In this document: piece after piece, positions 4,733 to 42,044 of the stretch
Numbering within the stretch: the stretch's first letter is position 1
Layout: each line of letters starts with the position of its first letter
Source: a virus
Taxonomy: Duplodnaviria; Caudoviricetes
Reading direction: 5' to 3' (one strand)
Length of the DNA stretch: 50,193 nucleotides
Virus record (IMG/VR): IMGVR_UViG_3300037439_000206
Location: 1-50,193 of that record
Program-made: the position numbers and the translations under genes
The notes under the pieces: generated by a model
Told to the model about the DNA's origin: nothing
Database searches by the model: none
The model's input: only the letters and a program-made list of their open reading frames with translations

Positions 4733-5365
4733 ATGATCCGCAAGACCGCTCTGCTGGCCGGCGCCGTCCTGGCGCTGTCCGTTATGACAGCCCCGGTCGC
4801 ACTGGCCCAGGACGACAGCACCAGCTGCGACGTGGCCAAGGACAGTGTCGCGAAGCTGGAGAAGAAGCTCGACGTGGCCGTGTTCGACGAGCGCGTGAAG
4901 GAGACCGAGAAGCGAGACGAGGCCAAGCGCGCGCGCGACGCCGCACAGGTCGACGTCGACGAGTTCGTCGCCGGCGAAGGTACTCCGACGCTCGATGAGC
5001 TGAAGCGGATCCTCAAGGACGCCAAGGAGACCCTCCGCGACGCCCAGGAGAAGCTCAACAGCGACTCGAACAAGCTCGTCGGACTGCGCGCCCAGGTCAC
5101 GTTGGCCATCGCCGAGCGCGACGAGGTGTGCGGTGGCGTGACCACCACACCCGCGACCCCCGAGCCGGAGAACGACGTCGACTGTGACGAGGTGGGGGCC
5201 AGCGAGGCGCAGCGCATCCTGGACGCCGACCGCAACGACCCGCACAACCTGGACCAGGACAACGACGGCATCGCGTGCGAGATCGACGAGGTGCTGGTCG
5301 ACGACGATGACGACGAGGTCGTCGTCCCGTCCGGTGGCGTGGCCACCGGCGGCGGCCCGGCGTGA
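4733..5365 (+). CDS. Secreted protein with coiled coil, Excalibur-like Ca-binding motif and C-terminal VPSGGVATGGG; probable sortase F substrate
   Basis: AGGAG RBS, Sec signal ending ALA-Q, DVDCDE...LDQDNDGIACE motif; coupled to the sortase by a GTGA overlap. Confidence 0.8.
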   Translation: MIRKTALLAGAVLALSVMTAPVALAQDDSTSCDVAKDSVAKLEKKLDVAVFDERVKETEKRDEAKRARDAAQVDVDEFVAGEGTPTLDELKRILKDAKETLRDAQEKLNSDSNKLVGLRAQVTLAIAERDEVCGGVTTTPATPEPENDVDCDEVGASEAQRILDADRNDPHNLDQDNDGIACEIDEVLVDDDDDEVVVPSGGVATGGGPA

Positions 5366-5961
5366 GACTGCTCGCCCTCCTGCTCGGCGCCGCGCTCCTG
5401 GCGGGGTGCGGCGCCGAGTTCGTCGACGAACCACCGCGCGAGCCGCGGATCCAGGTCGTCGACCCGCCGTCGGTCGTCGACCCGACCGCGATCAGCATCC
5501 CGAAGATCGGCGCGCAGTCGTCGCTGATCCCGCTCGGCCTGACCGAGACGAACGAGCTCGACGTCCCACCGGTGAGCGAGCCCGGCCAGGCGTCTTGGTA
5601 CGCCGGCCGCGACCCTGCGTTCGACGGCGACGAGTGGCAGCCGGGCGAGAACGGGCCGGCCATCATCGCGGGGCATGTCGACGGGACCGGTCCGGACGGC
5701 CGCAAGGGCTACCCGGGCGTGTTCGCCCGGCTGACCGAGCTGGCCCCGGGCGACCAGATCGTCATCGAGCGCTCGCCGAAGGCCCCGCTCACGTTCGTGG
5801 TCACCGGCGTCGAGCAGGTGAAGAAGGCGGCGTTCCCGTGGGACCGGGTGATGGCCGGAACCGATACGCCGACGTTGCGCCTGATCACCTGCTCGGGACC
5901 GTTCCAGCGGAGTACAGGTCACTACGTCGAGAACACGATCGTCTGGGCCGAGCTCGGGTGA
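5362..5961 (+). CDS. Class F sortase with lipoprotein signal
   Basis: LLAGC lipobox; ISIPKIG, ASWY, PGENGPAIIAGHVD, LRLITCSG and HYVENTIV motifs typical of actinobacterial class F sortases. Confidence 0.9.
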   Translation: MRLLALLLGAALLAGCGAEFVDEPPREPRIQVVDPPSVVDPTAISIPKIGAQSSLIPLGLTETNELDVPPVSEPGQASWYAGRDPAFDGDEWQPGENGPAIIAGHVDGTGPDGRKGYPGVFARLTELAPGDQIVIERSPKAPLTFVVTGVEQVKKAAFPWDRVMAGTDTPTLRLITCSGPFQRSTGHYVENTIVWAELG

Positions 5962-8049: not shown

Positions 8050-8081
8050 AAGAGCCCCCCGTCTTCGGACGGGGGGCTCTT
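8050..8081. terminator. Bidirectional intrinsic terminator between the convergent late and early arms
   Basis: Perfect 14-bp stem AAGAGCCCCCCGTC/GACGGGGGGCTCTT with a TTCG loop. Confidence 0.9.
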
Positions 8082-8103
8082 TCCGTGCGTCTGAGGTCAG
8101 GAG

Positions 8104-8292
8104 CTATCGCGCCGGGCGGCTGATATCCAGGGCGGCCTGTGCGCCGGCCCGGAGCGTGCACCCGCGCGAGTGACACAGCGGGCAGTGCCCGGTCGCGTCC
8201 GGGGCGTGCGTGGCGACCAGCCGGCGCAGGTTGGGGATCGGCGTACAGCTCTGGAAGGTGCGAACGAGCATGAGCATGTCGGCGTGATTCAC
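8104..8292 (-). CDS. Small His/Cys protein (H...CPLC...C)
   Basis: GAGAGGAC RBS 3 nt before GTG; ends at the terminator. Confidence 0.65.
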   Translation of the reverse strand: MNHADMLMLVRTFQSCTPIPNLRRLVATHAPDATGHCPLCHSRGCTLRAGAQAALDISRPAR

Positions 8293-8347: not shown

Positions 8348-9931
8348 TTAGCGTCCCGCACCCGGCTGCTTGCCGTCGAGCGCCCAACGGAGCGCACCGG
8401 TGGCCGCGTCCACAAGATCGTCATTCACCTTCGGTGACGGGAACATCACCATCTCCCGCTCCAGCTCGGTGTGCTCGATCGCGTGGAACACCCGGCCGGT
8501 CTCGTACCACTGCAACGCCTGCTCGCACCGGTCGCGCTTGCTGTCGCTGGACCAGTCGGTCTCCAGCCGGACGTGCCGGGGCAGTGGGTCGTGGCGCGGA
8601 CTGAGCATCTCCCGCCAGCGCTCGCCGCCCTGGTTGCGCTCCACGATGATCGTGCGCAGCGTCGGCTTACGCTCCAGCATCCGATGGATCCGCTGCCGCA
8701 GCGTCTCGGCCGTGATCCGGAACGCCTGGGCGTACTCGATGACCGCGTGCCGTCGGGCCGGGTCCCGCCCGACCACCACGATCGCCGTGCCGTCCGCGCC
8801 GGACTTGTCCGACATCGACGGGTCGATGTACATCGCGTGCTCCCAGACCCCGCCGAAGCTGGCCGAGGTGCGCCGCTGGAACAGCTCCGGGCGCCAGAAC
8901 GAACCGGCCTCGGTCCCGAACGGGCTCGGGTCCAACAGGTAGTTGAGCTGGAACTCGCGCGGCGTCTGCCCGTCGTGGGTCAGGCGCAACTCCTTACCGA
9001 AGTGCGTCTCGGTCAGCGGCCAGCGCTCCGGCCAGATCGAGCGCTCCGCGCCGGTGTCCGGGTCCACCTGCACGCCCGGGAACACTCGGGCGGTGATCCC
9101 GGCGTTCTCCACCCACTCCATCCGCTCCCGGCTGCGGGCGTGCTGGGCCAGGTCGTGGATGACCGAGCCGTAGGACGTGGTGGTGCCCAGGATGATGGCC
9201 GCGGAGTTGTCCGACCCCATCGGCAGCGCCGCCCGGGTGATGGTCGCGATCCGGCTGCGCTTCTCGACCTCGCTCATGGTGTCCTCGAGCGGCTCGATGT
9301 CGTCGAACACCAGCAGGTCCGGCCGGTCCGCCCCGGACTTGCGACCGAGCGTGTTCTCGCCCAGCCCGGACGCGGCGATGGTGCCGCCGTTCGCCACCAC
9401 GGTCGCCTTGGTGTTCGACCCGCCCCGCCCACGGCGCGGGGTCAGTTCCGGGTAGTCCTGGCGCAGGAGCTTGTTGTCGTCGAGCTCCATCCGCAGGTTC
9501 GCGAGCTGGCCCTGGGCCATCACGGACGTGTCGCTGAAGGCCATGAAGTAATGCCGGTGCCCGTGGGCCAGAGCCCACAGCGGCAGGATCAGGAACGCCC
9601 ACGAGGTCTTGCCGATCCCCCGCGGCGCGATCCAGGCCTCCCGCCAGCGCTTCGGCTGTTGCCACTGCTTCGCGGCCCGACACAGCCCGAGGTGCAGTTC
9701 GTTGAACGTCATCACCGGCGGGGTCGAACCCTGGAGTACGAGGTGGTGCGGGAAGTAGACGAGCGCGAACCGCAGCGGTGACTCCCTGGTCCAGTCCCGG
9801 CGGAACTTGGCCGAGGTCGCGATCGAGGGCGTGCGCAGCGGCGCGGTCTCGTTCTCGAACCAGCGGAACCACGGACCGGCCGGCGGCCGAACGACCGGCT
9901 TGGCCGGCGGCGGGACCAGGGACAGGGTCAT
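8348..9931 (-). CDS. terL: Second terminase large subunit (TerL-2), 527 aa
   Basis: Walker A APRGIGKT, Walker B RPDLLVFDDIE, GTT coupling motif, RNase H-like nuclease residues YIDPS, DGTAIVVVG and DDLVDA; ATGA-coupled start at 9931. Confidence 0.9.
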   Translation of the reverse strand: MTLSLVPPPAKPVVRPPAGPWFRWFENETAPLRTPSIATSAKFRRDWTRESPLRFALVYFPHHLVLQGSTPPVMTFNELHLGLCRAAKQWQQPKRWREAWIAPRGIGKTSWAFLILPLWALAHGHRHYFMAFSDTSVMAQGQLANLRMELDDNKLLRQDYPELTPRRGRGGSNTKATVVANGGTIAASGLGENTLGRKSGADRPDLLVFDDIEPLEDTMSEVEKRSRIATITRAALPMGSDNSAAIILGTTTSYGSVIHDLAQHARSRERMEWVENAGITARVFPGVQVDPDTGAERSIWPERWPLTETHFGKELRLTHDGQTPREFQLNYLLDPSPFGTEAGSFWRPELFQRRTSASFGGVWEHAMYIDPSMSDKSGADGTAIVVVGRDPARRHAVIEYAQAFRITAETLRQRIHRMLERKPTLRTIIVERNQGGERWREMLSPRHDPLPRHVRLETDWSSDSKRDRCEQALQWYETGRVFHAIEHTELEREMVMFPSPKVNDDLVDAATGALRWALDGKQPGAGR

Positions 9932-10137
9932 CGCCGTGGCTCCAGGAAGTCCAGCGTCCAGGACAGCGCCCGCTTGAGCGCGACCCGCACCGTCCGCCAC
10001 GCCTCCGACGGGCGGTCCTCGGGCATCGGCACGTCGCGCCGCGCCAGGGCCGCGCCGATGAACGGAGCGACCAGCACCCCGATCCCGGCCGCGGTCATGA
10101 CCACGAACGCGATCCAGCCCCACCACGGCAGACTCAT
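9928..10137 (-). CDS. Small membrane protein
   Basis: GGAGG RBS, TM helix, ATGA overlaps at both ends. Confidence 0.65.
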   Translation of the reverse strand: MSLPWWGWIAFVVMTAAGIGVLVAPFIGAALARRDVPMPEDRPSEAWRTVRVALKRALSWTLDFLEPRR

Positions 10138-10258
10138 CGCCAACCGCCCTTCGGTGTCCAGATCCAGGTGCGCCAGCACGTCGGGCAGGTCCACTTGAGC
10201 ATGTCCGCGTGCGGATGGGTGAACCCGCCCGCGGGCGGGGTGCATGCGTGCTTGCCCA

Positions 10259-10609
10259 TCACTGCACCGGCCCGGGCATCGGGTGGCGCCACGGCCAGTG
10301 CGGGCCCGGCCGGAAGCCCCGGCCCCGGCACGGCGGGCACGGCTTGCGGACCCGGCCACCGGGCAGCGCCTGCGCGCCCTCGTCGTAGGTGGCGAGCTGT
10401 GCCTCGTCCCCGGTCAGCTCGACGAGTCCGGTCGCGCCGCACTCCTCGCACGGCTCGGTCGGGGCCAGCTCGCAGTGCAGCGATCCGGTGGACTCGCCCA
10501 TCCACTGGTCACCGACCAGGGACACCGACTCGTGGTTGGAGTAGCGGCACTTGCCGCGCACGCCGAACAGCGAGCCGGTGCGCCAGATGCCGGCCAGGGT
10601 GCGGCCCAT
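10259..10609 (-). CDS. Zinc-ribbon protein with DnaJ-type CxxCxGxG repeats
   Basis: CEECGATG and CPPCRGRG motifs. Confidence 0.65.
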   Translation of the reverse strand: MGRTLAGIWRTGSLFGVRGKCRYSNHESVSLVGDQWMGESTGSLHCELAPTEPCEECGATGLVELTGDEAQLATYDEGAQALPGGRVRKPCPPCRGRGFRPGPHWPWRHPMPGPVQ

Positions 10610-10610
10610 G

Positions 10611-10916
10611 TCAGCTGCGCCCCATCTGCCGGTCACCACGGGCGGCGGCCTGGGTCAGGCCGTAGGTCAGGGTCCAGCTGGCCCAGAGCAGGAGCGAGGT
10701 GCCGGCCCCGCCGAGCAGCCAGAGCCAGTTCCCGCCACTGGCCCAGAGGCCGGACAGGCCGCCGGCGAGCAGCATCGGGACCAGGGATGGGCCGGTCTTC
10801 ACCGGCAGGGCCTGCGTCCTGTCGGTCGGGTACGTTCCCGGCGGGTAGTGGCGGTACTCGCCGACCCAGTCTCCGCGGCCTCGGGGGGCCGGGTTGATGT
10901 CATCCGTCGAGTCCAT
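10611..10916 (-). CDS. Small 2-TM membrane protein
   Basis: Two hydrophobic segments; operon position. Confidence 0.6.
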   Translation of the reverse strand: MDSTDDINPAPRGRGDWVGEYRHYPPGTYPTDRTQALPVKTGPSLVPMLLAGGLSGLWASGGNWLWLLGGAGTSLLLWASWTLTYGLTQAAARGDRQMGRS

Positions 10917-11460
10917 CGGTCTTCTCCATGTCCTTGGTCTTCTCTGCGTGCTTGTCCACGGCCTTGCGCAGCTCGTGCAGCACGGCCATGTTCGGGCCGA
11001 TCGGGTCGCCGTTCGCGTCCTCGACCTGGAGCCGGGTCGGCATCGACGCGCCGGTCACCTTCACCCAGAGCGTCTCCAGGGACACGTAGCGGGCCATCGC
11101 CTTGTCCAGGGCGCTGTGCCCCTTCTCGAAGTCCAGCTCGCCGGTGGACGCGCCCACGGCCAGCTCGGTGATGGTCGCCAGCTGGCGCTCCAGGGCCGCA
11201 TCCAACCGGCCGATGGACGTGGCCCGGCTCTGGGCCGGGCCGACGAAGTCCAGGAACCGGGCCCGGTCCTGCGCCTCGCTGATGAGCTCGGCCACCGTGG
11301 TGTGGCTGACCGGGTCGCCACGGTCGGTGAACATCTTCGCGATCGTGCGCAGGGACCGGCCCTGGTCCTTCAGGTTCCAGGCCTCGTCACCGAGCTTCGC
11401 CCGGCTCTCCGCGTCCGCGCTGAAGCGGCCGCGAGGCGGTCCGTCTTCGCTGACAGTCAC
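10900..11460 (-). CDS. terS: Second terminase small subunit-like HTH protein (TerS-2)
   Basis: AWNLKDQGRSLRTIA HTH, RLDAAL, and KVTGASMPTRLQV...GDPI. Same architecture as 30354..30791; lies upstream of TerL-2. Confidence 0.7.
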   Translation of the reverse strand: MTVSEDGPPRGRFSADAESRAKLGDEAWNLKDQGRSLRTIAKMFTDRGDPVSHTTVAELISEAQDRARFLDFVGPAQSRATSIGRLDAALERQLATITELAVGASTGELDFEKGHSALDKAMARYVSLETLWVKVTGASMPTRLQVEDANGDPIGPNMAVLHELRKAVDKHAEKTKDMEKTDGLDG

Positions 11461-11893: not shown

Positions 11894-12196
11894 TCACTGC
11901 GGGGGCTCCGTCGGGTCGCCGCTCATGTCCCAGTCCTGATCCCGGGCGCGCCCGTGTGTCTGCTGGTAACCGGCCTGGCTGCGAGCGGCCTTCGCGGCGT
12001 CCTCGTGTTGGACGTAGAACTTCACGGCCGGAACGCCGAACGCGATCGCGCCGAGCAGGAACCCGATCCAGGGCCCACTTGCGGTCAGCGAGGTGACCAG
12101 GGAGACGGTGCAGAAGAAGAACCCGACGTAGACCAGCCAACGCACCACCTGGCCTTCGGTGATCTCGATCGTGCGCTTGTCGTTGCCGTTGCTCAT
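11894..12196 (-). CDS. 2-TM membrane protein
   Basis: Two hydrophobic helices. Confidence 0.65.
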   Translation of the reverse strand: MSNGNDKRTIEITEGQVVRWLVYVGFFFCTVSLVTSLTASGPWIGFLLGAIAFGVPAVKFYVQHEDAAKAARSQAGYQQTHGRARDQDWDMSGDPTEPPQ

Positions 12197-12201
12197 CGCG
12201 C

Positions 12202-12441
12202 TCAGCCCGCCGGGTGCGGCTGGCCGTCGAGCCCGCGGTACTGCGCGGGCAGCACCTCGTCGGCCTTGATGTCGTGCAGCTCCAGGAGCTCCCGGGCGTG
12301 GCGGCGCATCGAGCGCTGCACGCTCGCGCCGATCGCGGTGCCGGCGTCCTGCGCGTTGGCGGCGTCCCAGATCGCGGACGCCAGCGTCTCGGCGGCGACG
12401 TCGCTCTTGGCGATGGTCAGATCCTGCGGTCGAATGGCCAT
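12202..12441 (-). CDS. Hypothetical protein
   Basis: GAGAGGAC RBS; GC-rich third codon positions. Confidence 0.7.
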   Translation of the reverse strand: MAIRPQDLTIAKSDVAAETLASAIWDAANAQDAGTAIGASVQRSMRRHARELLELHDIKADEVLPAQYRGLDGQPHPAG

Positions 12442-12750
12442 GTCGATGTCCTCTCGTGGTGTGCGCTACGCCGGGTCAGGCGTAGCAGGGCGGGATCTTG
12501 CAGTGGCGATCCGCGTAGCAGTGCGCGCAGACGCACCAGCACTTGATGAGTGCACTCGTACCCGGGTCCGCCCCGGGCGCAGTCCGTGGACGCGCCGTCG
12601 GTAGATCCGTTCGCAGATCACCAGCGGCACCACCGAGCACGCGGTCAGGAAGACCAGGACCGCCAGCGCGGTCACTTGTTCGGTCGGGGGTAGCGCGGGC
12701 AGCTCGGCCAATGGCCGGAGACCGCGTCACAGTCGGGGCAGTTCGCCACG

Positions 12751-13071
12751 TCATCTCTCCTCGGCTCGAAAGTGGTCGTCGTTCGCGGTGTCGGCGTCCA
12801 TGTCGACGTGCAGCCGGGCCAGGCCCTCGTGCTTCTCGGGCTTGCGGTTCTCCTGGACGGCGTCCCGGATCGCCTCCTCCAGTTCGCGCCGGGCCAGGTG
12901 CGGGGCCTGCAACAGTCGCACGATCTCGGCCGACAGCGCGCCGATCAGACCGATCGCGCCCGCGAACAATCCCCACACCGGGTTCTCGCCCTGGCTCGAG
13001 TAGACCGTGGCGAACAGCACCGACGGCACGATGACCGAGGCCGCGAGCGGGAGGATCCAGCGCCGGAGCAT
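12751..13071 (-). CDS. 2-TM membrane protein
   Basis: Two hydrophobic helices; TGATG coupling to the upstream gene. Confidence 0.7.
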   Translation of the reverse strand: MLRRWILPLAASVIVPSVLFATVYSSQGENPVWGLFAGAIGLIGALSAEIVRLLQAPHLARRELEEAIRDAVQENRKPEKHEGLARLHVDMDADTANDDHFRAEER

Positions 13072-13331
13072 CAGGACTCCAGCGTCTTGCGTCGCCAGTG
13101 CCGGGTGGCCGGGCCGCGCACGATCTCGTGCACCGAGCTGCGGTCCAGCCCGACCGCGGCGCAGATCGTGGACACGGACACGTGGTGCGTGTTGCGCAGC
13201 GTGTACATGGCCTTGTTGCGTTCCTGGCGCTTGGCCTCGGCCGCGACCTCGAGCTCTACGGCCTCGGTGGCGAGCCGCCCCGCCGCAGCGAGCCCCGCCG
13301 CGACCTCGTCGGTGTCTTCCATGGTGGTCAT
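13071..13331 (-). CDS. HTH DNA-binding protein
   Basis: SVSTICAAVGLDRSSVHEIV helix-turn-helix. Confidence 0.75.
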   Translation of the reverse strand: MTTMEDTDEVAAGLAAAGRLATEAVELEVAAEAKRQERNKAMYTLRNTHHVSVSTICAAVGLDRSSVHEIVRGPATRHWRRKTLES

Positions 13332-13630
13332 CGTAGCCTATTCCCTACAGTCGACAAAGGGTGGTCGGACCGGCGGGTCGTCCAGTCGATGCCGACCGTC
13401 CACATCCCGAGGTAGCCCCGGCGCCAGCCCTGGTCGACGGCCGAGGCCCGGTCCGGGGCATCGAACTTGGACCGGATCTTGCGCACCTCCCAGCGGATCG
13501 CGTCCTCGGTGGTGCGCAGCCGGACGGCCATCTGTGAGTCGGTCTGCCCCTTGGCCGCCAGTGACAGGATCTCGACCTGGCGCACGGTCAGGGCCTCGCC
13601 CAGGGGCGCCGGCCGTCTCGGGGTGCTCAC
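13328..13630 (-). CDS. Stand-alone LuxR/GerE-type HTH regulator
   Basis: LTVRQVEILSLAAKGQTDSQMAVRL...IRSKF...RASAV...GYL; GTG start at 13630. Confidence 0.8.
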   Translation of the reverse strand: MSTPRRPAPLGEALTVRQVEILSLAAKGQTDSQMAVRLRTTEDAIRWEVRKIRSKFDAPDRASAVDQGWRRGYLGMWTVGIDWTTRRSDHPLSTVGNRLR

Positions 13631-13929
13631 GGCGTCTCCCCGAGCAGGGCCCGCCCGATGGCCTCGACCTCGTCCGAGGGCAGGCATCGAAGCTCGACAC
13701 CGACTTGCGCCAACCGGGTCCCGACGTACAGGTCGACGGCCACGTCCGCGGCCTTGCGGAACCGGTCCGGCCAGTCGATCGGGGCGGGGTCGCTGCTCTT
13801 TCGGCCGCAACCCTGCTCCAGGCAGTAGGCGACATCCGCGCCCCACTCGACTCGGCCGCGCCGGTGCTGGCTGCATGTCCAGAAGCGGACGCGGGCACTG
13901 GCCAGCGCCTCAGGCAGCTCCTCGCTCAT
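13627..13929 (-). CDS. Array micro-gene, hypothetical (Cys/His)
   Basis: Starts at the repeat's ATG with its GGAGG RBS. Confidence 0.7.
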   Translation of the reverse strand: MSEELPEALASARVRFWTCSQHRRGRVEWGADVAYCLEQGCGRKSSDPAPIDWPDRFRKAADVAVDLYVGTRLAQVGVELRCLPSDEVEAIGRALLGETP

Positions 13930-14150
13930 CGGTCCTGCCCTCCGGCCTCGACGGGAACGAGCCGCCACGACGCGACGAACGTCCCGGCAGTGCCCGGCTT
14001 CCGGCCCGGGTCCTCGTCGGCCTGGAACGTGACCGTGATCAGGTCGCCGGTGACCTGCCAGCCGAACCAGCCGTCGAGGGCGTCGTTGTAGTCGCTGGCC
14101 GCGTCCTCGCCGTGCTCGGAGAGGTTGCGCAGCATCTGCTCTGGGGTCAT
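13926..14150 (-). CDS. Array micro-gene, 74 aa, ends GGQDR
   Basis: Bounded by junction repeats. Confidence 0.7.
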   Translation of the reverse strand: MTPEQMLRNLSEHGEDAASDYNDALDGWFGWQVTGDLITVTFQADEDPGRKPGTAGTFVASWRLVPVEAGGQDR

Positions 14151-14386
14151 CGGTCCTGTCCTCCGTCCAACCCGAGCTGCGCCATCGCCGTCCGGACTGC
14201 CAGGTGCGATGCCTCCGCCCACGCAATGCCGGCACGCGTGCGGCCGTCGTGCGGGTTTGCGTCGCGCGTGATGCCGTACGTGTCGTACAGGCAGTCGGCG
14301 AGGTCCTGGCGCTGCTCGGGGGTGAGGTTCCCGAGCAGGACCCGGGTCCGGACGACATGCTGGTCTGCAAGCGTCTCGTCGCTCAT
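14147..14386 (-). CDS. Array micro-gene, 79 aa, ends DGGQDR
   Basis: Bounded by junction repeats. Confidence 0.7.
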   Translation of the reverse strand: MSDETLADQHVVRTRVLLGNLTPEQRQDLADCLYDTYGITRDANPHDGRTRAGIAWAEASHLAVRTAMAQLGLDGGQDR

Positions 14387-14529
14387 CGGTCCTGCCCTCC
14401 GTCCTCGTCGAGCGTGTCTTCTGCGGCGTCCAGCTCCCGGCGGAGCGCGGCCACCTGCGCGCGCTGCTCGGCGCGGGCGTCGGCCTCCTCCTCGGCGGTC
14501 ATGGTCCTGATCTCCCACTGCTTAGCCAC
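14383..14529 (-). CDS. Array micro-gene, 48-aa coiled coil, ends DGGQDR
   Basis: Translated by hand; bounded by repeats. Confidence 0.65.
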   Translation of the reverse strand: MAKQWEIRTMTAEEEADARAEQRAQVAALRRELDAAEDTLDEDGGQDR

Positions 14530-14647
14530 GGTCCTGTCCTCCGTCCTCGTCGTCCTGGTCAGGCCCCGGGCACATGTGATTGGCGCGGGAGTCGGTCATG
14601 CACTCGCACACCGGGCAGAGCACGTAGTCCTCATGGAGCCAGCTCAT
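14522..14647 (-). CDS. Array micro-gene, 41 aa (CPVC...HMC), ends DGGQDRG
   Basis: Translated by hand; bounded by repeats. Confidence 0.65.
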   Translation of the reverse strand: MSWLHEDYVLCPVCECMTDSRANHMCPGPDQDDEDGGQDRG

Positions 14648-14796
14648 CGGTCCTGCCCCTCGTCCTGCCCCTCGCCCTGCCCGAGCAGTGCCCGCCGGAC
14701 GTCGTCGGTCGTGAGCGTCGCCCCGCCAGGTGTGCCGTGCTCCATGTCGCGCACCTCCAGATCGTCGAGGAGGTTGGCCACGTCCAGGTCGTTCAT
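14644..14796 (-). CDS. Array micro-gene, 50 aa, ends EGQDEGQDR
   Basis: Translated by hand; bounded by repeats. Confidence 0.65.
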   Translation of the reverse strand: MNDLDVANLLDDLEVRDMEHGTPGGATLTTDDVRRALLGQGEGQDEGQDR

Positions 14797-15125
14797 CGGT
14801 CCTGTCCTCCGTCCTCGTCCTCGTGCGCGCGGGCCAGCGCAGCGAGCGTGTTCGCCAACGCCGGGTAGCCGCTCCTTCGAAGGCGTTCCGCCTGGTTCGG
14901 GTGGAGCTGGAACACCTGCACGACGGCCTCGGCCACCTCGTCCCGTGCGCGCAGCTCGGCCAGTTCGGCGGCCATCTCGTCCATGGCGTCGGCGGCCATC
15001 AAGTAGCCGTGCCGGACCCCGGCCAGGAACGAGTCGTGCGGGTTGCCATCCAGCTTCGCGGCAGACGCCCGAAAGTTGGCCGGGTACTTTGCCACGTCGG
15101 CCGGGGCGGACTGGTCGGCGGTCAT
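14793..15125 (-). CDS. Array gene, 110 aa, ends DGGQDR
   Basis: TGATG-coupled start; ends in a repeat. Confidence 0.7.
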   Translation of the reverse strand: MTADQSAPADVAKYPANFRASAAKLDGNPHDSFLAGVRHGYLMAADAMDEMAAELAELRARDEVAEAVVQVFQLHPNQAERLRRSGYPALANTLAALARAHEDEDGGQDR

Positions 15126-30353: not shown

Positions 30354-30791
30354 ATGGCCCGCACCGGACGGCCGCCCTCGATCGAGGCCGCAGAGAAGCG
30401 TCGGGACGCGCTCCTGGCTCGTCAGCGTGGCCACTCCTGGGCCGAGGTCGGGCGCATCGTCGGGTACGCGGACGCGAGCAGCGCGCAGCGAGCCGCCATG
30501 CAGGCCCTGCGCGACATCCCCCGCGAGGCGGCCGACGAGCTGCGCAAGGTCGAGCTGGAGACGCTCAACGAGCTGCAGGTCGCACTGCGCGCGAAGCTCG
30601 AGGAGAAGCCCTCCGCGTTCCTGGTCGACTCCATCCTGAGGATCATGGAGCGGCGCGCGAAGATGCTCGGTATCGACGCTCCGCTGGCCATCCGTACCGA
30701 AGTCGTGACCGTGGACGCGGTCGACGCCGAGATCCAGCGGCTGGAGGCGCAGCTCGAGCAGAGCAGCACCGTCACCGAGGAGTCCAGATGA
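30354..30791 (+). CDS. terS: Terminase small subunit (TerS-1)
   Basis: N-terminal HTH (GHSWAEVGRIVGY), ERRAKMLGIDAP; first gene of the virion operon. Confidence 0.8.
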   Translation: MARTGRPPSIEAAEKRRDALLARQRGHSWAEVGRIVGYADASSAQRAAMQALRDIPREAADELRKVELETLNELQVALRAKLEEKPSAFLVDSILRIMERRAKMLGIDAPLAIRTEVVTVDAVDAEIQRLEAQLEQSSTVTEESR

Positions 30792-30943
30792 TCGTGCTCG
30801 GGATAATCCTGCTCGTCCTCGGTCTCGTGACCGGGATGTCGATCCTGTACACGCTCGGCGTGATCCTGATCGTGATCGGCATCGTGCTGCTCGCCCTGGG
30901 CGCGTCCGGGCGCGCCATCGGCGGTCGGAGCCACTGGTACTGA
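30788..30943 (+). CDS. Small membrane protein, DUF6131-like
   Basis: Translated by hand: MIVLGIILLVLG...GRAIGGRSHWY. Confidence 0.75.
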   Translation: MIVLGIILLVLGLVTGMSILYTLGVILIVIGIVLLALGASGRAIGGRSHWY

Positions 30944-30957
30944 CGACGGGGGGCAGC

Positions 30958-32454
30958 GTGAAGACCGAAGCCGCGCCCATCCGGATCGAAGCACCGCTCG
31001 ACAAGCTGCGCCGACTGCGCGAGCTTCAGCGCCAGGTAGACGAGCTGCATTGGGCAGATGCACAACGCTGGCGCGAGGACGGCTCGGCCTGGGTGCGCGA
31101 GCGCCTGGACGAGCACGTCTGGTCCAAGCAGGACGAGGTGCTGGCCGGCATCCGCGACCACCGGCGCACCGCGGTCCGCTCCTGCCACGGCGTGGGCAAG
31201 AGCCACATCGCCAGCCGAGCGGTGGCGTGGTGGCTGGACACCAACAGGCCCGGCGAGGCGTTCGTGGTCACCACCGCGCCCACCTTCGCGCAGGTGCGGG
31301 CCATCCTCTGGCGCTACATCCGCCAGGCGCACCGCAAAGGCGCGTTGTCCGGCCGGGTCAACCAGACCGAGTGGTCGATCGACGGCGAGCTGGTCGCGTT
31401 CGGGCGCAAGCCCGCCGACCACGACGAGGGCGCGTTCCAGGGCATCCACGCCAAGCACGTGCTCGTGATCCTGGACGAGGCCTGCGGCATCCCCGAGGAC
31501 CTCTGGATCGCCGCGGACGCGCTCACCACCAACCCGGGCTGCCGGATGCTGGCCATCGGCAACCCTGACAACTCCTCGAGCCACTTCGCCCGGGTCTGCA
31601 AGCCGACCTCGATGTGGCACCAGATCGGCATCTCGGCCTACGACTCGCCCAACTTCACCGGCGAGCAGGTGCCCACCGAGCTGGCCGAGCTCCTGATCCA
31701 CCCGGACTGGGCCGAGGAGAAGCGCCTGGAGTGGGGCGAGGACAACCCCATCTACCGGGCCAAGGTGCTCGGCGAGTTCTCGGCCGACGACCCCGGCAAG
31801 GTGGTGCGGTTCTCCGATGTCGCCTCCTGCCGGATGCCTCAGGACACACCGCGTACCGCCGTCGAGCTCCTACCGATCGAGCTCGGTGTCGACGTCGGTG
31901 GTGGCGGCGACGAGACCGTCATCCGGGAGCGGCGTGGCCCGGTCGCAGGCCGGGAGTGGCGCGAGCGCAGCGATCAGCCGAACACGATCGCGCCCCTGGT
32001 GCTGCGGGCCATCCGGGAGACCGGCGCCACCCGCGTAAAGATCGACTCCACCGGCATCGGCTGGGGGCTCGTCGGCGAGCTGGTCAACCTCGGTGCCACC
32101 GGCGCGCACCAGGCCGTCATCGTCGGCGTGAACGCGGCCGAGGCCAGCCTCGAACCCGAGGTGTACAAGAACGCCCGCGCCGCCATGTGGTGGATGGCCC
32201 GGCTGCACTCCCAAGAGCGCACCTGGGACCTGTCCACCATGGAGAACGCGGACGCGACCGTGGCGCAACTCCTTGAACCGGGCTGGCTCCTGGACCTGCA
32301 GGGCCGGATCCAGGTCGAGAAGAAGGAAGACGTCATCGAGCGGCTCGGCCGCTCCCCGGACAACGCCGATGCGCTGTTGTTGGCGTACTACAACCCGCCC
32401 GGCGACGCGGCCTCCGCGCTCGACTGGCTCGCGCAATCGAAACGTGCAGCGTGA
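30958..32454 (+). CDS. terL: Terminase large subunit (TerL-1)
   Basis: SCHGVGKS Walker A, LVILDEA Walker B, IGNP, GVDVG...DET and SPDNADA motifs. Confidence 0.93.
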   Translation: MKTEAAPIRIEAPLDKLRRLRELQRQVDELHWADAQRWREDGSAWVRERLDEHVWSKQDEVLAGIRDHRRTAVRSCHGVGKSHIASRAVAWWLDTNRPGEAFVVTTAPTFAQVRAILWRYIRQAHRKGALSGRVNQTEWSIDGELVAFGRKPADHDEGAFQGIHAKHVLVILDEACGIPEDLWIAADALTTNPGCRMLAIGNPDNSSSHFARVCKPTSMWHQIGISAYDSPNFTGEQVPTELAELLIHPDWAEEKRLEWGEDNPIYRAKVLGEFSADDPGKVVRFSDVASCRMPQDTPRTAVELLPIELGVDVGGGGDETVIRERRGPVAGREWRERSDQPNTIAPLVLRAIRETGATRVKIDSTGIGWGLVGELVNLGATGAHQAVIVGVNAAEASLEPEVYKNARAAMWWMARLHSQERTWDLSTMENADATVAQLLEPGWLLDLQGRIQVEKKEDVIERLGRSPDNADALLLAYYNPPGDAASALDWLAQSKRAA

Positions 32455-32466
32455 CGAGAGGAACCC

Positions 32467-32760
32467 ATGTCAGCACTCGAAGCCGTCGACGCAGAGTCCG
32501 AGGCCGTCAGGACCGGCTTCCGGATCACGCTCGACTACATGAAGTCGCACGTGGCCAGCGCCGAGAACATCGAGCGCGGCGTACTGAACATCTGCCTCAT
32601 GCAGATGGACAACGGCTACTGGCTGGTCGGGAAGTCGGCCCCGGTCGACCCGTCGAACTACAACGCCGAGTACGGCCGCCAGCTGGCCTACGACGACGCG
32701 CTTCGCCAGGCATGGCCGCTGTACGCCTTCGCCCACCTGGAGACGACGAACAAGGCGTGA
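32467..32760 (+). CDS. Gp49/Gp66-like phage protein
   Basis: ICLMQMDNGYWLVGKSAPVDPSNYNAEYGRQLAY...AWPL pattern. Confidence 0.8.
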   Translation: MSALEAVDAESEAVRTGFRITLDYMKSHVASAENIERGVLNICLMQMDNGYWLVGKSAPVDPSNYNAEYGRQLAYDDALRQAWPLYAFAHLETTNKA

Positions 32761-32900
32761 TTGGGGTCGGCCGCCGAGAGGGCAACGCCCCCGCAGTAAC
32801 GCGCACGCCACCCTGCGGGTCGCTCGACGCTTCTACTGGCCCACGTGTTCGCCCCTGGGCTCGCCTTCCGATCGACACGATAGAGCAGGGGCGGTGAGTC

Positions 32901-35726
32901 ATGGCCAAGCGTCGTCGTAGCCGCCGTCCCGTGCAGCAGGGCGTGGAGAAGTCCACCGCGCTCGTCCCGACCACCAACCAGAACCTGGCCGGGCGGCTCT
33001 ACACCGCCGAGCAGGTCGCCGGCCTGCTCAACCGCCAGCAGGAGACCGGCAGCCTGGCCGAGCCGCTGCCCCGCGACCAGTTCCCCTACGCGTTCGGGCC
33101 CGGCATCCCGCTGGTGCCCGCGCCGCTGGACCCGACCCGGCGCGACGGTCGCGCCGAGCCGCGGATCTGGGAGTACCCGGTCTCCTGGAACCTGCCCGGA
33201 CACTCGTCCCGGCTGGTGCCGTGGAAGACGCTGCGCGACGCCGCGAACCTGCCCCTGCTGCGCGACTGCATCCGCATCCGCAAGGAGGAGATCCGCGGCC
33301 TGGAGTGGGACTTCGGCCTGACCCGGCGCGCCCTGGACGAGGCCCGGCGCGACGAGCCCGACGCCGGCCAACTCGACGTCGAACGCGGCCTGCGTGAGAA
33401 GTTCGCCCAGACCATCAACGACGCCATCGAGTTCTGGGAGGTCCCGGACCCGGGCAACGGCTACACGTTCTCGGAGTGGATCAGCCAGTTCCTGGAGGAA
33501 CAGCTCGTCCTGGACGCGCTGGCGATCTACCCGCGCCGCACCCTGGGCGGGCAGCTGTACTCGCTGGAGATCCTGGACTCGACCACGATCAAGCCGCTGC
33601 TCGACCACCGGGGCGGCCGGCCGATGCCACCCGAGCCCGCCTACCAGCAGAACATCCACGGCTTCCCGCGTGGCGAGTTCACCGCTGACACGTCGGACAC
33701 CGAGGGCCGGACCGTCGTCCCGAACGCCTACGCCGCCGACCAGCTCATCTACATCCGGCGTGAGGTGCGCGCGAACACGCCCTACGGGCTGTCCCCGGTC
33801 GAGCAGTCGCTCATGGATATCGACACCTGGATGAAGCGGATCAACTGGATCCGGTCCGAGTACACCGACGGCGTCATGCCGTCCGGGTGGCTGCTCAACG
33901 AGCAGACCACCGGGCACCAGTGGACCCCGTCGCAGGTGCGCGAGTACGAGCGCGAGCTCAACGACTACCTGTCGGGCAACACCGGCAACCGGCACCGCTA
34001 TCGGGTGCTGCCGCCCGGGTTCAAGCCCGACGACTCCGGCTCGTCCGACCAGCAGGCCGAGAAGTACAAGCCCGACTTCGACCTGCACCTGCTCAAGCTC
34101 GTCGTCGCGCACTTCGACATCACGGTGCACGAGCTCGGGTTCACCGAGCCGAAGGGCCTGGGCAGCCAGGGCCACGCCGAGGGCCAGGACCGGCTCAACG
34201 AGCGGCGCGGCCGCAAGCCGGTGCTGCGCTGGATCGCGTCCCTGATCACAGACATCTCCCGGGCGCACCTCGACCTGCCGCGCGAGCTGGAGTTCAAGTG
34301 GCTCGGGATCGAGGACGAGTCCGACTCCGACGAGGACGAGGACACCACCCTCGAGGACGTCGCGTCCGGCGTGCTCACCCTGAACGAGGCCCGCGACCGC
34401 CGTGGCCTGCCCCGCTACACGTTCCCGGAGGCAGACAAGGCCGCCGTCATCAACGGCGCCACCATCACGTTCGTCGAGGGCGCCGAGGAACGCGCGGCGG
34501 CCGCGCTTGAGCTGGAAGCCCAGGTGGCCGACGCTAAGGCGAACCCACCTGCCAGCGGCCCAGCCGGTCCCCCCGCCGGCAAGGGGCCGCAGGGCGGCGG
34601 CACGGGCTCATCCCCTGCCGCCGCCCGCCCTGCCTCCGCCAAGTCGGGGGGCTCATCGGCGAAGGCGGCCGAGGCCGCTGCGTACCGCAAGTGGGCGTCG
34701 AAGGGGATCAGCGCCCGGCGGTTCCAGCTCGAGCACATCGTCGAGCCCAGCGACCTCCTGCAGTTCGGGATCGATCCGGCCCGCGTTACGTTCGCGGGAA
34801 AAGCTGAGGCCCCGCGGGACGGGGCACTCGACCGGATCGCGCAGGAGTGCGCCGCCCGACTGCGCCACGTCGCGCTGAGCGCGGTCGACTGCGACGAACT
34901 GGCCGCGGCCTGGGCCGAGCACTACGGCCTGGACAAGGGCCTGCGCGACCTCGTGCAGATCGCGCTGGCCTGGCTGCACGGGCGGGCCATCGACCTGACC
35001 GGCGCGCTCGGCAGCGTCGTGCGCGGCGCGGTCAGCGACGGATGGGACGCCGGCCAGACCGACGCGCTGGACGCGGTCGGTGACGGCGCGCGTTTCCCGT
35101 CCGGCCAGCTCCTGGAACAGGCCCTCGATCGGGTCGACATCACGATCTCGTCGGTGGCCGCGACCAGGTTCGACGAGCTCGCCGAGGTTCTGGCCACCGG
35201 CGTCAAGCAGGGCCTGTCGGCGAGCACGTTGGCCAAGGACCTGCGCGACGCGCTCGAGGACGAGCGCTGGGCCGAGACCGTCGCCGTCACCGAGACGGCC
35301 CGGGCCATGTCCGCCGCCACCCAGGCGACCTACCTGGCCAACGGTGTCGAGCGCAAGACCTGGCTGCTCGCCCCTGACCAGCGGGTGTGCGACCGCTGCG
35401 AGGGCAACGCCAGTCAGGGCGCGATCCCGACCACCGACCAGTTCGCCAGCGGCGACGCACACCCACCAGCGCACCCACGCTGCCGCTGCGCGCTGGTGCC
35501 GGTGATCGAGCTCGCCGACGACCCGGACCTGACCAAGGCCGGGGACCGCTACCAGTTGCGCGACTACTGGCTGCGCGGCGAGGGCGCGGCCCGGTGGAAG
35601 ACCTGGACGCAGCTCTACCGCCACCTGAAGGACCACGTCAACGACGAGAGCGCCAAGCGCATGGCCGCGTCCTGGTACCACGCGAGATATGGCCGCTGGC
35701 CTGGAGAGAAGGGCCACGATGACTGA
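32901..35726 (+). CDS. Portal protein fused to a MuF-like minor head domain
   Basis: YGLSPVE and LTLNEAR portal motifs; AVTETARA, VCDRC and PPAHPRCRC MuF motifs in one ORF. Confidence 0.9.
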   Translation: MAKRRRSRRPVQQGVEKSTALVPTTNQNLAGRLYTAEQVAGLLNRQQETGSLAEPLPRDQFPYAFGPGIPLVPAPLDPTRRDGRAEPRIWEYPVSWNLPGHSSRLVPWKTLRDAANLPLLRDCIRIRKEEIRGLEWDFGLTRRALDEARRDEPDAGQLDVERGLREKFAQTINDAIEFWEVPDPGNGYTFSEWISQFLEEQLVLDALAIYPRRTLGGQLYSLEILDSTTIKPLLDHRGGRPMPPEPAYQQNIHGFPRGEFTADTSDTEGRTVVPNAYAADQLIYIRREVRANTPYGLSPVEQSLMDIDTWMKRINWIRSEYTDGVMPSGWLLNEQTTGHQWTPSQVREYERELNDYLSGNTGNRHRYRVLPPGFKPDDSGSSDQQAEKYKPDFDLHLLKLVVAHFDITVHELGFTEPKGLGSQGHAEGQDRLNERRGRKPVLRWIASLITDISRAHLDLPRELEFKWLGIEDESDSDEDEDTTLEDVASGVLTLNEARDRRGLPRYTFPEADKAAVINGATITFVEGAEERAAAALELEAQVADAKANPPASGPAGPPAGKGPQGGGTGSSPAAARPASAKSGGSSAKAAEAAAYRKWASKGISARRFQLEHIVEPSDLLQFGIDPARVTFAGKAEAPRDGALDRIAQECAARLRHVALSAVDCDELAAAWAEHYGLDKGLRDLVQIALAWLHGRAIDLTGALGSVVRGAVSDGWDAGQTDALDAVGDGARFPSGQLLEQALDRVDITISSVAATRFDELAEVLATGVKQGLSASTLAKDLRDALEDERWAETVAVTETARAMSAATQATYLANGVERKTWLLAPDQRVCDRCEGNASQGAIPTTDQFASGDAHPPAHPRCRCALVPVIELADDPDLTKAGDRYQLRDYWLRGEGAARWKTWTQLYRHLKDHVNDESAKRMAASWYHARYGRWPGEKGHDD

Positions 35727-40922: not shown

Positions 40923-42044
40923 GTGGCTACGCCTACGACCTACACCCCGGCCAAGGAGTTCCTGGGCGTCGCCCCGGAGACCGAGGCCGGTACCGCCGTA
41001 CCGATGATCGCGACGATCCCGTTCACGAAGGTCGACTTCGAGGACCAGATCAAGTGGCTCGACGACCCGTCGTTGCGCGGCTCGATGGCCGGCCTGTACG
41101 GCCGCTACCAGGGCGTGCGCGAGGTCGACTTCAGCATCGAGGGCCCGGCGTACGTCGACACCTTCCCGCACCTGCTGCAGTCCATGTTGGGTGACCGCAC
41201 CACGACCGGCGCCGGTGATCCGTACACGCACGCCTTCTCGCTGAACAACTCGTTCAGCGGCCAGCCGATCACGCACACCCTGACCTGGTTCACCGGCATC
41301 ACCGACACCGTCGGCGCCCGGACCTACCCCGGCGCGGCGCTGTCCGAGCTGTCCATCGAGTTCGACATCGAAGGTGGCGGCGGCGGCGGCAAGGGCGGCG
41401 GCGGCGGCGGCGGCAAGGGCGGCGGAGGAGGCGGCGGAGGAGGCGGCAAGGGCGGCGGCAAGGGCGGAGGCGGCGGCAAGGGCCTCGTCCAGTACAAGAG
41501 CAAGGGCCAGGCCTGGGGCAGCTCGGTCGCCCTCGCCGAGCCGGTCGCCGCGCCGTCGAGCGTGCCACCGTTCGCGGCCTGGCGCGCCCTGCTCGGCATC
41601 GGCGGGCCGGCGTCGGGCGGCACCCTCGTGGCGAACGTCAGCACCGCGTCGTTCGTGTTGAAGAGGAAGCTGGACGTGATCTACACGTTCTCGAACCAGC
41701 AGCAGCCCTACGTGATCCAGCGGGGCGCGCTCACCGCTGAGGGCAAGGCCACGTTCATCGCCGTCGACGAGACGCCGCTGCTCACGATGCTGGCCGGCAC
41801 CGTGCAGCCGCTGCAGCTGGTGCTCGACAACGGCGTCGTCGGTGCAGGTCAGCGCGCGATCCAGATCGACATGCAGCAGTGCATCTACGAGAAGGTCAAG
41901 ACCGAGGACGGCAAGGAAGCGACGATGTTCATGGTCGACTTCGACGGCATCGCGAACAGCACGAACGCGGGCGCGACCGGTGGCCTGTCTCCGATCGAGG
42001 TCACCGTCACCAACGGCACGGCGGGGACGGTGTACAGCGCATGA
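40923..42044 (+). CDS. Major tail (tube) protein with a poly-Gly/Lys insertion
   Basis: LGVAPETEAGTAV and YTHAF motifs; position before chaperone and tape measure. Confidence 0.85.
   Translation: MATPTTYTPAKEFLGVAPETEAGTAVPMIATIPFTKVDFEDQIKWLDDPSLRGSMAGLYGRYQGVREVDFSIEGPAYVDTFPHLLQSMLGDRTTTGAGDPYTHAFSLNNSFSGQPITHTLTWFTGITDTVGARTYPGAALSELSIEFDIEGGGGGGKGGGGGGGKGGGGGGGGGGKGGGKGGGGGKGLVQYKSKGQAWGSSVALAEPVAAPSSVPPFAAWRALLGIGGPASGGTLVANVSTASFVLKRKLDVIYTFSNQQQPYVIQRGALTAEGKATFIAVDETPLLTMLAGTVQPLQLVLDNGVVGAGQRAIQIDMQQCIYEKVKTEDGKEATMFMVDFDGIANSTNAGATGGLSPIEVTVTNGTAGTVYSA

What the first reader, a model, noticed from the sequence alone, without database searches (positions are those of the whole stretch)
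8348..11460. Second intact terminase pair (TerS-2 + TerL-2) in the early arm of a phage with one portal and one capsid
Seen: besides the TerS/TerL at 30354-32454, a minus-strand 527-aa ORF keeps Walker A (APRGIGKT), Walker B (LLVFDDIE), the GTT motif and nuclease acidic residues (IDPS, DGT, DDLVDA). A TerS-like HTH gene lies 1 kb upstream, separated by four small genes. The two TerLs differ greatly, so this is not a recent duplication. No second portal, capsid, integrase or primase accompanies it, and neighbouring genes use the phage's own CGAGAGGAC RBS (8296, 12448). Established: tailed phages normally carry one terminase, satellites use their own TerS to redirect packaging, and Avs defence ATPases sense TerL. 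Inference: it could be a second packaging specificity (host or other DNA, i.e. dedicated transduction), an interference module against co-infecting phages, an early nuclease or decoy against terminase-sensing immunity, or a captured fragment of another phage.
Basis: partly seen in the sequence, partly recalled or inferred. Interest (0 to 1): 0.87.

Follow-up and report, generated by a model that had tools for sequence, protein, structure and literature searches.

The report
Portal-less terminase with a membrane partner
Besides its normal DNA-packaging enzyme, this phage keeps a second, intact packaging-type enzyme pair that lacks the tail normally used to dock on the capsid entrance and travels with a small membrane-protein gene in many unrelated phages, so it likely cuts DNA, possibly that of rival phages, instead of packing it.

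Summary
Confirmed. 8348-9931(-) is a complete large terminase (phrog_38, E 2e-69) with ATPase and nuclease sites intact; 10900-11460(-) is a small-terminase homologue. Neither resembles the portal-linked pair at 30354-32454. It is not a chimera or relic: the same module sits at the end of the leftward arm in related contigs and is under purifying selection. All 9 related virus records at least 70% complete also carry a separate TerL beside a portal, in three different TerL/portal combinations, while a sister phage with the same head arm lacks the module. In a tree, 20 portal-less copies form one clade inside portal-linked relatives (MiniFlayer, Yara, OscarSo). Portal-linked copies have a 23-40-residue C-terminal tail; 19 of 21 portal-less copies have 12-21. 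A two-helix membrane gene (11894-12196) lies upstream of TerS across deep lineages and in 0 of 29 packaging loci. Best reading: a TerS-guided nuclease freed from packaging (about 0.65), most likely against rival phage DNA (about 0.4 overall); no function is shown. No paper found in nine searches.

The parts
8348..9931 (-). TerL-2: 527-aa portal-less large terminase (phrog_38 family); ATPase and RNase H-type nuclease sites intact; short C-terminal tail (19 aa after DDxxD)
10900..11460 (-). TerS-2: 186-aa small terminase homologue (HTH, two long helices, extended strand, extra C-terminal helix)
11894..12196 (-). 100-aa two-helix membrane protein conserved upstream of TerS across deep portal-less lineages; inferred third component
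10259..10609 (-). 116-aa CxxCxGxG-type zinc-finger protein, kept in 5 close relatives; a similar finger is fused to the membrane protein in L241
9928..10137 (-). 69-aa single-pass membrane protein overlapping the TerL-2 start (ATGA); kept in 7 close-clade loci only
10611..10916 (-). 101-aa membrane protein between TerS-2 and TerL-2; found in 1 relative only, probably a passenger
10134..10262 (-). 42-aa ORF with a CxxC motif; no relative found
8104..8292 (-). 62-aa His/Cys zinc-finger-like gene after TerL-2, kept in 6 close-clade loci; last gene of the arm
8050..8082 (.). GC-rich hairpin between the converging leftward arm and lysis genes; likely terminator (read by eye; the consensus scan did not list it)
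12202..13630 (-). Upstream block kept in the close clade: LuxR-type HTH, HTH, two-helix membrane gene, 79-aa gene
30354..35726 (+). For contrast: the phage's own packaging module, TerS-1 (phrog_645), TerL-1 (phrog_2), portal-MuF fusion (phrog_2662)

Best explanation
This is an intact second TerS-TerL pair from a conserved portal-less lineage that lacks the tail by which its relatives likely dock on the portal, so it likely works as a TerS-guided DNA-cutting enzyme rather than a packaging motor, most likely against the DNA of rival phages or satellites. Shown: intact genes, purifying selection, independence from the head module, short tail, co-occurring membrane gene. Inferred: (1) the lost tail is the portal-binding element (from T3, lambda, SPP1, P22 and from the context correlation; about 0.8); (2) the kept product is a nuclease whose ATPase domain grips DNA and gates cutting (about 0.65 overall); (3) TerS-2 picks a site or end on foreign DNA and the membrane protein holds the complex where DNA enters, making a superinfection-exclusion or competition module (about 0.4 overall).
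For: Independent of the head: a separate TerL beside a portal is present in the window and in 9 of 14 other virus records with a portal-less copy, including all 9 at least 70% complete (G001, G002, G003, G009, G016, G013, G014, G420, G421; G009 and G016 hold the same locus). Their head modules differ: phrog_2 TerL with portal-MuF, phrog_9 with phrog_104, phrog_9 with phrog_12/2662. Dispensable for packaging: 0 of 5 records with TerL-1 relatives carry it, among them G004 with 85% TerL-1 and the same structural arm. Selected: dN/dS 0.10 (L001/L086, 23 synonymous, 7 non-synonymous) and 0.17 (L012/L013); between the window and G001, TerL-2 is 74% and TerS-2 79% identical, against portal 73% and TerL-1 56%. 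One origin: 20 portal-less rows form one clade (SH-aLRT 93) nested among 26 portal-linked rows; one change also. Tail: 24-37 aa in 33 of 33 portal-linked and 23-40 in 57 of 57 further ones, against 12-21 in 19 of 21 measurable portal-less copies. Deleting C-terminal residues blocks portal binding in T3, lambda, SPP1 and P22 (PMC13595956, passage). Catalytic residues kept in 23-24 of 24 portal-less rows, but E213 after Walker B, invariant in 102 of 102 portal-linked rows, is Q or D in 5 of 24, as expected if motor work is relaxed. The ATPase domain is needed for proper nuclease activity (PMC13595956 section 5), which explains why it is kept. Membrane gene: profile hits in 9 of 25 non-portal loci, 0 of 29 packaging loci; leave-one-out ranks 6 of 8 distant candidates above all unrelated rows among 248 small membrane proteins; out of sample it hits 1 of 71 new loci, L241, which is portal-less.
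Against: No target, cut site, expression timing or phenotype is shown. Two portal-less copies (L028, L127) keep 34-35-aa tails, and no second TerL was found in their partial records. L313 has a 19-aa tail yet lies beside a portal (its genome has another TerS/TerL pair), and L119 has a 20-aa tail inside a head cluster. The window's copy keeps E213 and the conserved Arg before Walker B (R203), so a working ring motor is not excluded. The membrane gene is 434 bp upstream of TerS-2 with two genes between, is absent or unsupported in L024, L029, L139, L140 and L243, and binding is untested. The lineage is separate from today's portal-linked relatives, so there is no sign of recent capture from a rival. 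Clade support is SH-aLRT only, and branches are long. dN/dS at larger distances (0.41-0.46) is inflated by saturation, like that of portal and capsid (0.42-0.43).
Confidence: 0.4

Rival explanations
1. Same non-packaging nuclease, but aimed at the host chromosome (takeover and nucleotide supply), with TerS-2 targeting or restraining it.
For: Lies in the leftward arm with exonuclease, endonuclease VII and methylase genes. SPP1 TerL has unspecific nuclease activity (PMC3592435, passages). TerS-2 is more conserved between the window and G001 than TerL-1, and TerS-1 has no BLAST match there, which fits a slowly changing target.
Against: Also found in integrase-carrying phages (G009, G012). Keeping a sequence-reading TerS and a membrane gene is more than bulk degradation needs.
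Confidence: 0.15
2. It cuts the phage's own replicating DNA: making ends for recombination-driven replication, or the first cut that TerL-1 then packages from.
For: TerS normally reads its own genome (PMC13595956 section 12); recombination nucleases lie in the same arm.
Against: Occurs with three kinds of packaging module, each with its own TerL nuclease; G004 packages with the same head arm without it.
Confidence: 0.15
3. A membrane-docked DNA pump: the small membrane protein replaces the portal and the TerL ring moves phage DNA across membranes or hyphal cross-walls.
For: Walker A/B and R203 kept; membrane gene co-conserved; sister phage G004 carries an FtsK/SpoIIIE ATPase, DUF2637 and GntR genes in the same slot; Pfam FtsK rang in 0 of 5 two-terminase records against 2 of 5 records without TerL-2.
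Against: E213 is Q or D in 5 of 24; nuclease site stays invariant; G012 has both TerL-2 and an ORF with FtsK-like motifs (read by eye), and portal-linked loci L011 and L017 carry FtsK relatives too; the slot is a general accessory region.
Confidence: 0.1
4. A second packaging specificity that loads host or other DNA into the phage's own heads (dedicated transduction).
For: Complete enzyme and TerS; two portal-less copies keep long tails.
Against: TerL-2 copies 64% identical sit with unrelated portals (window versus G002); tail missing in 19 of 21.
Confidence: 0.08
5. A decoy or dominant-negative: it soaks up terminase-sensing Avs proteins, or poisons the motors of rival phages in mixed rings.
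For: Best fold match is the terminase bound by Avs3 (8dgc); that Avs reads active-site residues is recalled, not checked, and would keep those residues. A tail-less subunit could block a mixed motor.
Against: Does not explain TerS and the membrane gene; a faithful terminase would be expected to trigger rather than silence Avs; only about 34% identity to portal-linked relatives makes mixed rings doubtful.
Confidence: 0.09
6. Neutral captured fragment or assembly chimera.
For: Variable small genes between TerS-2 and TerL-2; reads not examined.
Against: Conserved position in independent contigs, dN/dS 0.10-0.17, homing-endonuclease inserts tolerated in frame, one clade.
Confidence: 0.03

Closest known systems
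[quoted passage not shown]
   Same: 32-35% identity over about 90% of TerL-2; same motifs; homologous TerS.
   Different: There the pair heads the head-gene cluster before a portal and TerL has a 25-27-aa tail; here no portal follows, the tail is short and another TerL stands by the portal.
Satellite packaging redirection (SaPI TerS plus interference protein, PICI Rpp, cf-PICI own TerS/TerL; PMC10690885 introduction, passages)
   Same: An extra terminase component that could alter which DNA is processed in a co-infected cell.
   Different: Carried by an autonomous tailed phage, includes a whole TerL, has no capsid or portal genes of its own and no sign of being a separate element.
Split or alternative terminase annotations in print (phiPDS1 split TerL, PMC10773633; Xap phages with two TerL alleles in different isolates, 10.1101/2025.11.25.690537)
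   Same: Two TerL labels appear.
   Different: Those are halves of one gene or alternatives in different genomes; here two whole, unrelated TerS/TerL pairs coexist.
FtsK/TraB-type transfer modules of actinomycete elements
   Same: Ring ATPase with small membrane proteins; occupies the same slot in sister phage G004.
   Different: Unrelated ATPase family; TerL-2 carries a nuclease and a TerS.

Membership tests
Large terminase (TerL) protein family | N-terminal ATPase with Walker A and B, C-terminal RNase H-type nuclease with acidic triad | tested here: met
Small terminase (TerS), phrog_645-like actinophage group | HTH plus helical oligomerisation core, homologous to annotated TerS | tested here: met
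   Iterated profile hits the gene before TerL in 27 of 29 packaging loci, among them annotated TerS of OscarSo and KimJongPhill; BFVD hit to KimJongPhill TerS E 2.6e-3; phrog_645 E 0.007
Phage packaging motor (TerS-TerL-portal) | Cognate portal and head genes in the same module | tested here: not met
   No portal after TerL-2 in the window or in the portal-less loci; a different TerL stands by the portal
Phage packaging motor (TerS-TerL-portal) | C-terminal portal-binding tail as in its own family | tested here: not met
   19 aa after DDxxD (11-17 in the 55 best protein hits) against 23-40 with frequent S/A-Y end
Phage packaging motor (TerS-TerL-portal) | Binds portal and translocates DNA into procapsids | not testable with these tools
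   needs biochemistry
Phage satellite (PICI, cf-PICI, MiniFlayer type) | Separate element with integrase or own replication and/or own capsid genes | tested here: not met
   Module is embedded in the arm, uses host-phage codon bias and shares synteny with relatives; no integrase, capsid or repeat borders found
Superinfection-exclusion or anti-phage nuclease module | Blocks or degrades incoming phage DNA | not testable with these tools
   inferred from anatomy only; PADLOC was not searched
FtsK/TraB-like DNA transfer module | FtsK/SpoIIIE ATPase | tested here: not met
   PF01580 absent from the window record

The most novel reading that the evidence does not exclude
An old lineage of terminases has left the capsid altogether and docks instead on a small phage-made membrane protein, forming a three-part machine (membrane anchor, TerS reader, TerL ring) that seizes and destroys rival phage genomes as they enter the cell, or pumps DNA across membranes: the first non-packaging job for a complete viral terminase.
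Probability: 0.3. Interest if true: 0.92.

Novelty: new variant of a known kind. Interest (0 to 1): 0.79.

Why it matters
Tailed phages are taken to have one terminase, used only for packaging, and TerL is a standard single-copy marker for trees and for predicting packaging mode. A widespread, selected second terminase that is decoupled from the portal breaks that rule, can mislead marker-based classification, and points to an undescribed use of the enzyme, probably in phage-phage conflict. The tail difference also gives a natural experiment on how TerL docks on the portal, and the L313 genome may show how a motor is displaced and freed.

Tried and rejected
Single-sequence scan of viral contigs found nothing; alignments were needed. 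Chromosomal domestication: the family matched 2 of 401 sampled Actinomycetes genomes, both portal-linked, and the one genome-collection scan gave 1 locus, portal-linked. A conserved (T)GATCAC upstream of TerS-2 in six relatives overlaps a stop codon and GATCAC occurs 54 times in the window: not claimed as a site. No sigma-70 promoter found. Direct TerS-2 versus TerS-1 comparison was not significant; PDB search of the TerS-2 model gave only generic helical hairpins. ESM Atlas named neither TerS-2 nor the membrane protein. L119 was first counted as portal-less and removed when MuF, scaffold and capsid genes were found behind it; L245 and L313 were first labelled portal-less and moved when other portal families were found; L120 (1.7 kb downstream only) was counted as portal-less from its layout. 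Membrane-gene candidates in L139 and L140 failed leave-one-out. Mutual exclusion with FtsK/TraB is not strict. A complex prediction of TerL-2, TerS-2 and the membrane protein was queued but gave no result: no verdict. Read-level checks of the assembly and of genome ends were not obtained. Literature: searches found no description; the library lacks most subscription papers, and bioRxiv supplements were not visible, so a passing mention may exist.
Full report
Observation. The window is a circular assembly of a high-GC tailed phage (127-bp end duplicate), by its relatives an actinophage. A rightward arm holds TerS-1 (30354), TerL-1 (30958, phrog_2), a portal-MuF fusion (phrog_2662), head, tail and lysis genes. 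A leftward arm runs from about 23 kb to 8.1 kb and ends, facing the holin and endolysin, with a 527-aa ORF (9931-8348) that matches phrog_38 at E 1.9e-69 and keeps Walker A, Walker B, the GTTT motif and the nuclease acids. Its model (pLDDT 84.8) matches whole terminases. It has no BLASTP similarity to TerL-1. The 186-aa gene about 1 kb upstream is a TerS: a profile grown from it finds the gene before TerL in 27 of 29 packaging loci and in 19 of 25 non-portal loci, and its model hits the annotated TerS of KimJongPhill.

Not a chimera, not a relic. The protein search gave 162 hits, the best 55 at 44-78% identity. Contigs L001, L002, L003, L082, L083, L085, L086 and L087 show the same layout: end of the leftward arm, converging on lysis genes, no portal. 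Close pairs give dN/dS 0.10 and 0.17; between the window and G001 TerL-2 (74%) and TerS-2 (79%) are as conserved as portal (73%) and capsid (76%) and more than TerL-1 (56%). More distant pairs give 0.41-0.46, as do portal and capsid, because synonymous sites saturate at this GC. Reads were not examined.

Independent of the head. I searched 14 other virus records that carry a portal-less copy. Nine hold a separate TerL next to a portal, and these are all nine that are at least 70% complete (G009 and G016 hold the same locus); the five without one are 37-57% complete, and G018 was searched with phrog_2 only. The partners differ: phrog_2 with portal-MuF (window, G001), phrog_9 with phrog_104 (G002, G003, G014, G421), phrog_9 with phrog_12/2662 (G009, G013, G420). 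Conversely 0 of 5 records with TerL-1 relatives carry TerL-2, including G004, which shares the structural arm and 85% of TerL-1. Members include integrase-carrying phages (G009, G012) and genomes where I found none. In 401 sampled Actinomycetes genomes only two family members were found, both portal-linked.

One lineage. Loci were labelled by whether a portal follows. FastTree on 90 rows separates 46 portal-linked from 23 portal-less rows with one change, shuffled mean 19.5 (L119 was later removed from the portal-less set). IQ-TREE on 50 rows places 20 portal-less rows in one clade (SH-aLRT 93) inside the portal-linked ones, with L119 and L313 as sister; the 32-row tree left the root unresolved. 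The portal-linked side includes MiniFlayer, MulchRoom, Yara, KimJongPhill and OscarSo.

What changed in the protein. After the last nuclease motif (DDxxD), portal-linked copies carry 24-37 residues in 33 of 33 and 23-40 in 57 of 57 further sequences from a later scan (a few repeat earlier tails), mostly ending S/A-Y-x. Portal-less copies carry 12-21 in 19 of 21 measurable cases; the window has 19, of which about 11 are the last helix. Exceptions: L028 and L127 (34-35 aa), and the head-linked L313 (19) and L119 (20). [quoted passage not shown] That this tail does so in this family is inferred. Catalytic residues are kept in 23-24 of 24 portal-less rows; E213 is invariant in 102 of 102 portal-linked rows but Q or D in 5 of 24 portal-less ones. 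Whether E213 is the catalytic base is not established; the window keeps E.

A third gene. The 100-aa two-helix membrane gene at 11894-12196 has homologues upstream of TerS in 9 of 25 non-portal loci (eight of the 25 have under 1.5 kb upstream) and 0 of 29 packaging loci. In leave-one-out tests the candidates of L004, L012, L025, L030, L120 and L128 rank above every unrelated row among 248 small membrane proteins from the same loci; L139 and L140 do not. Among 71 new loci the profile hit only L241, which proved portal-less, short-tailed and two-terminase. These lineages all fall in one 14-row subclade (99). Co-occurrence is shown; binding is not.

Mechanism. A TerL that cannot dock, with nuclease intact and TerS kept, is most simply a guided nuclease; the ATPase domain is needed to bind DNA and set nuclease activity in other terminases (PMC13595956 section 5). 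I put a non-packaging nuclease at about 0.65-0.7 in all. For the target I favour rival phage or satellite DNA (0.4): the module is accessory, moves between unrelated head modules, occurs in temperate and apparently lytic phages, sits in the accessory slot beside the lysis genes, and travels with a membrane gene of the kind that would act at DNA entry. Host DNA (0.15), own DNA (0.15), a membrane-docked pump (0.10; G004 has an FtsK module in the same slot, but exclusion is not strict), a decoy or poison subunit (0.09) and second packaging specificity (0.08) remain.

Known and new. It is a TerL and a TerS by family, but fails two tested features of a packaging motor. Nine literature searches found no such module; the three papers opened for 'two' or 'second' terminase describe split genes, alleles or two families in different phages (passages). 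Satellite background is from passages of PMC10690885. The scan's own notes report the same kind of module in at least five other genomes, one with the missing tail and one with the rival-DNA idea; I had reached the lineage and tail results before looking, and the notes are not counted as support. Verdict: real, conserved, unexplained; new variant of a known kind; interest 0.79.

Noticed in passing
L313:350-2784 and L313:9923-13026 (G422): Another two-terminase genome: a phrog_2 TerS/TerL pair about 7 kb upstream of a short-tailed phrog_38 TerL (19 aa) that still lies beside a portal; with L119 it is sister to the portal-less clade, a possible intermediate in motor displacement.
   Followed up: partly
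L198:12434-19119 (G004): Temperate sister phage with the same structural arm has an FtsK/SpoIIIE ATPase, DUF2637 and GntR-HD genes in the slot that holds TerL-2 in the window.
   Followed up: partly
L086:3632-6349, L087:8486-11272: TerL-2 copies with an in-frame insert of about 400 aa just after Walker A; proteins of this size carry a LAGLIDADG domain, so likely inteins.
   Followed up: no
L241:8802-9335: The membrane protein is fused to an N-terminal CxxCxGxG zinc finger, directly before TerS.
   Followed up: partly
L119:134-7049: TerS-TerL followed by MuF, scaffold and capsid genes with no portal between.
   Followed up: partly
window 13911-14825 (-): Six short genes in a row end in a repeated motif that encodes GGQDR-like ends and supplies the next ribosome site; looks like a recombining gene-cassette array.
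   Followed up: no
window 30354-30791: phrog_645 is labelled 'RNase E' but its members here are small terminases.
   Followed up: partly
window 4733-5961: Secreted Excalibur-domain protein and a sortase between tail and lysis genes, conserved in relatives.
   Followed up: no
window 41357-41490 and 44336-44599: Glycine-rich repeat inside the tail tube gene and three 66-bp repeats in the tape measure gene.
   Followed up: no
L224:12807-14567 (G010): Head-region ORF with an ADP-ribosyltransferase-like C-terminal domain.
   Followed up: no
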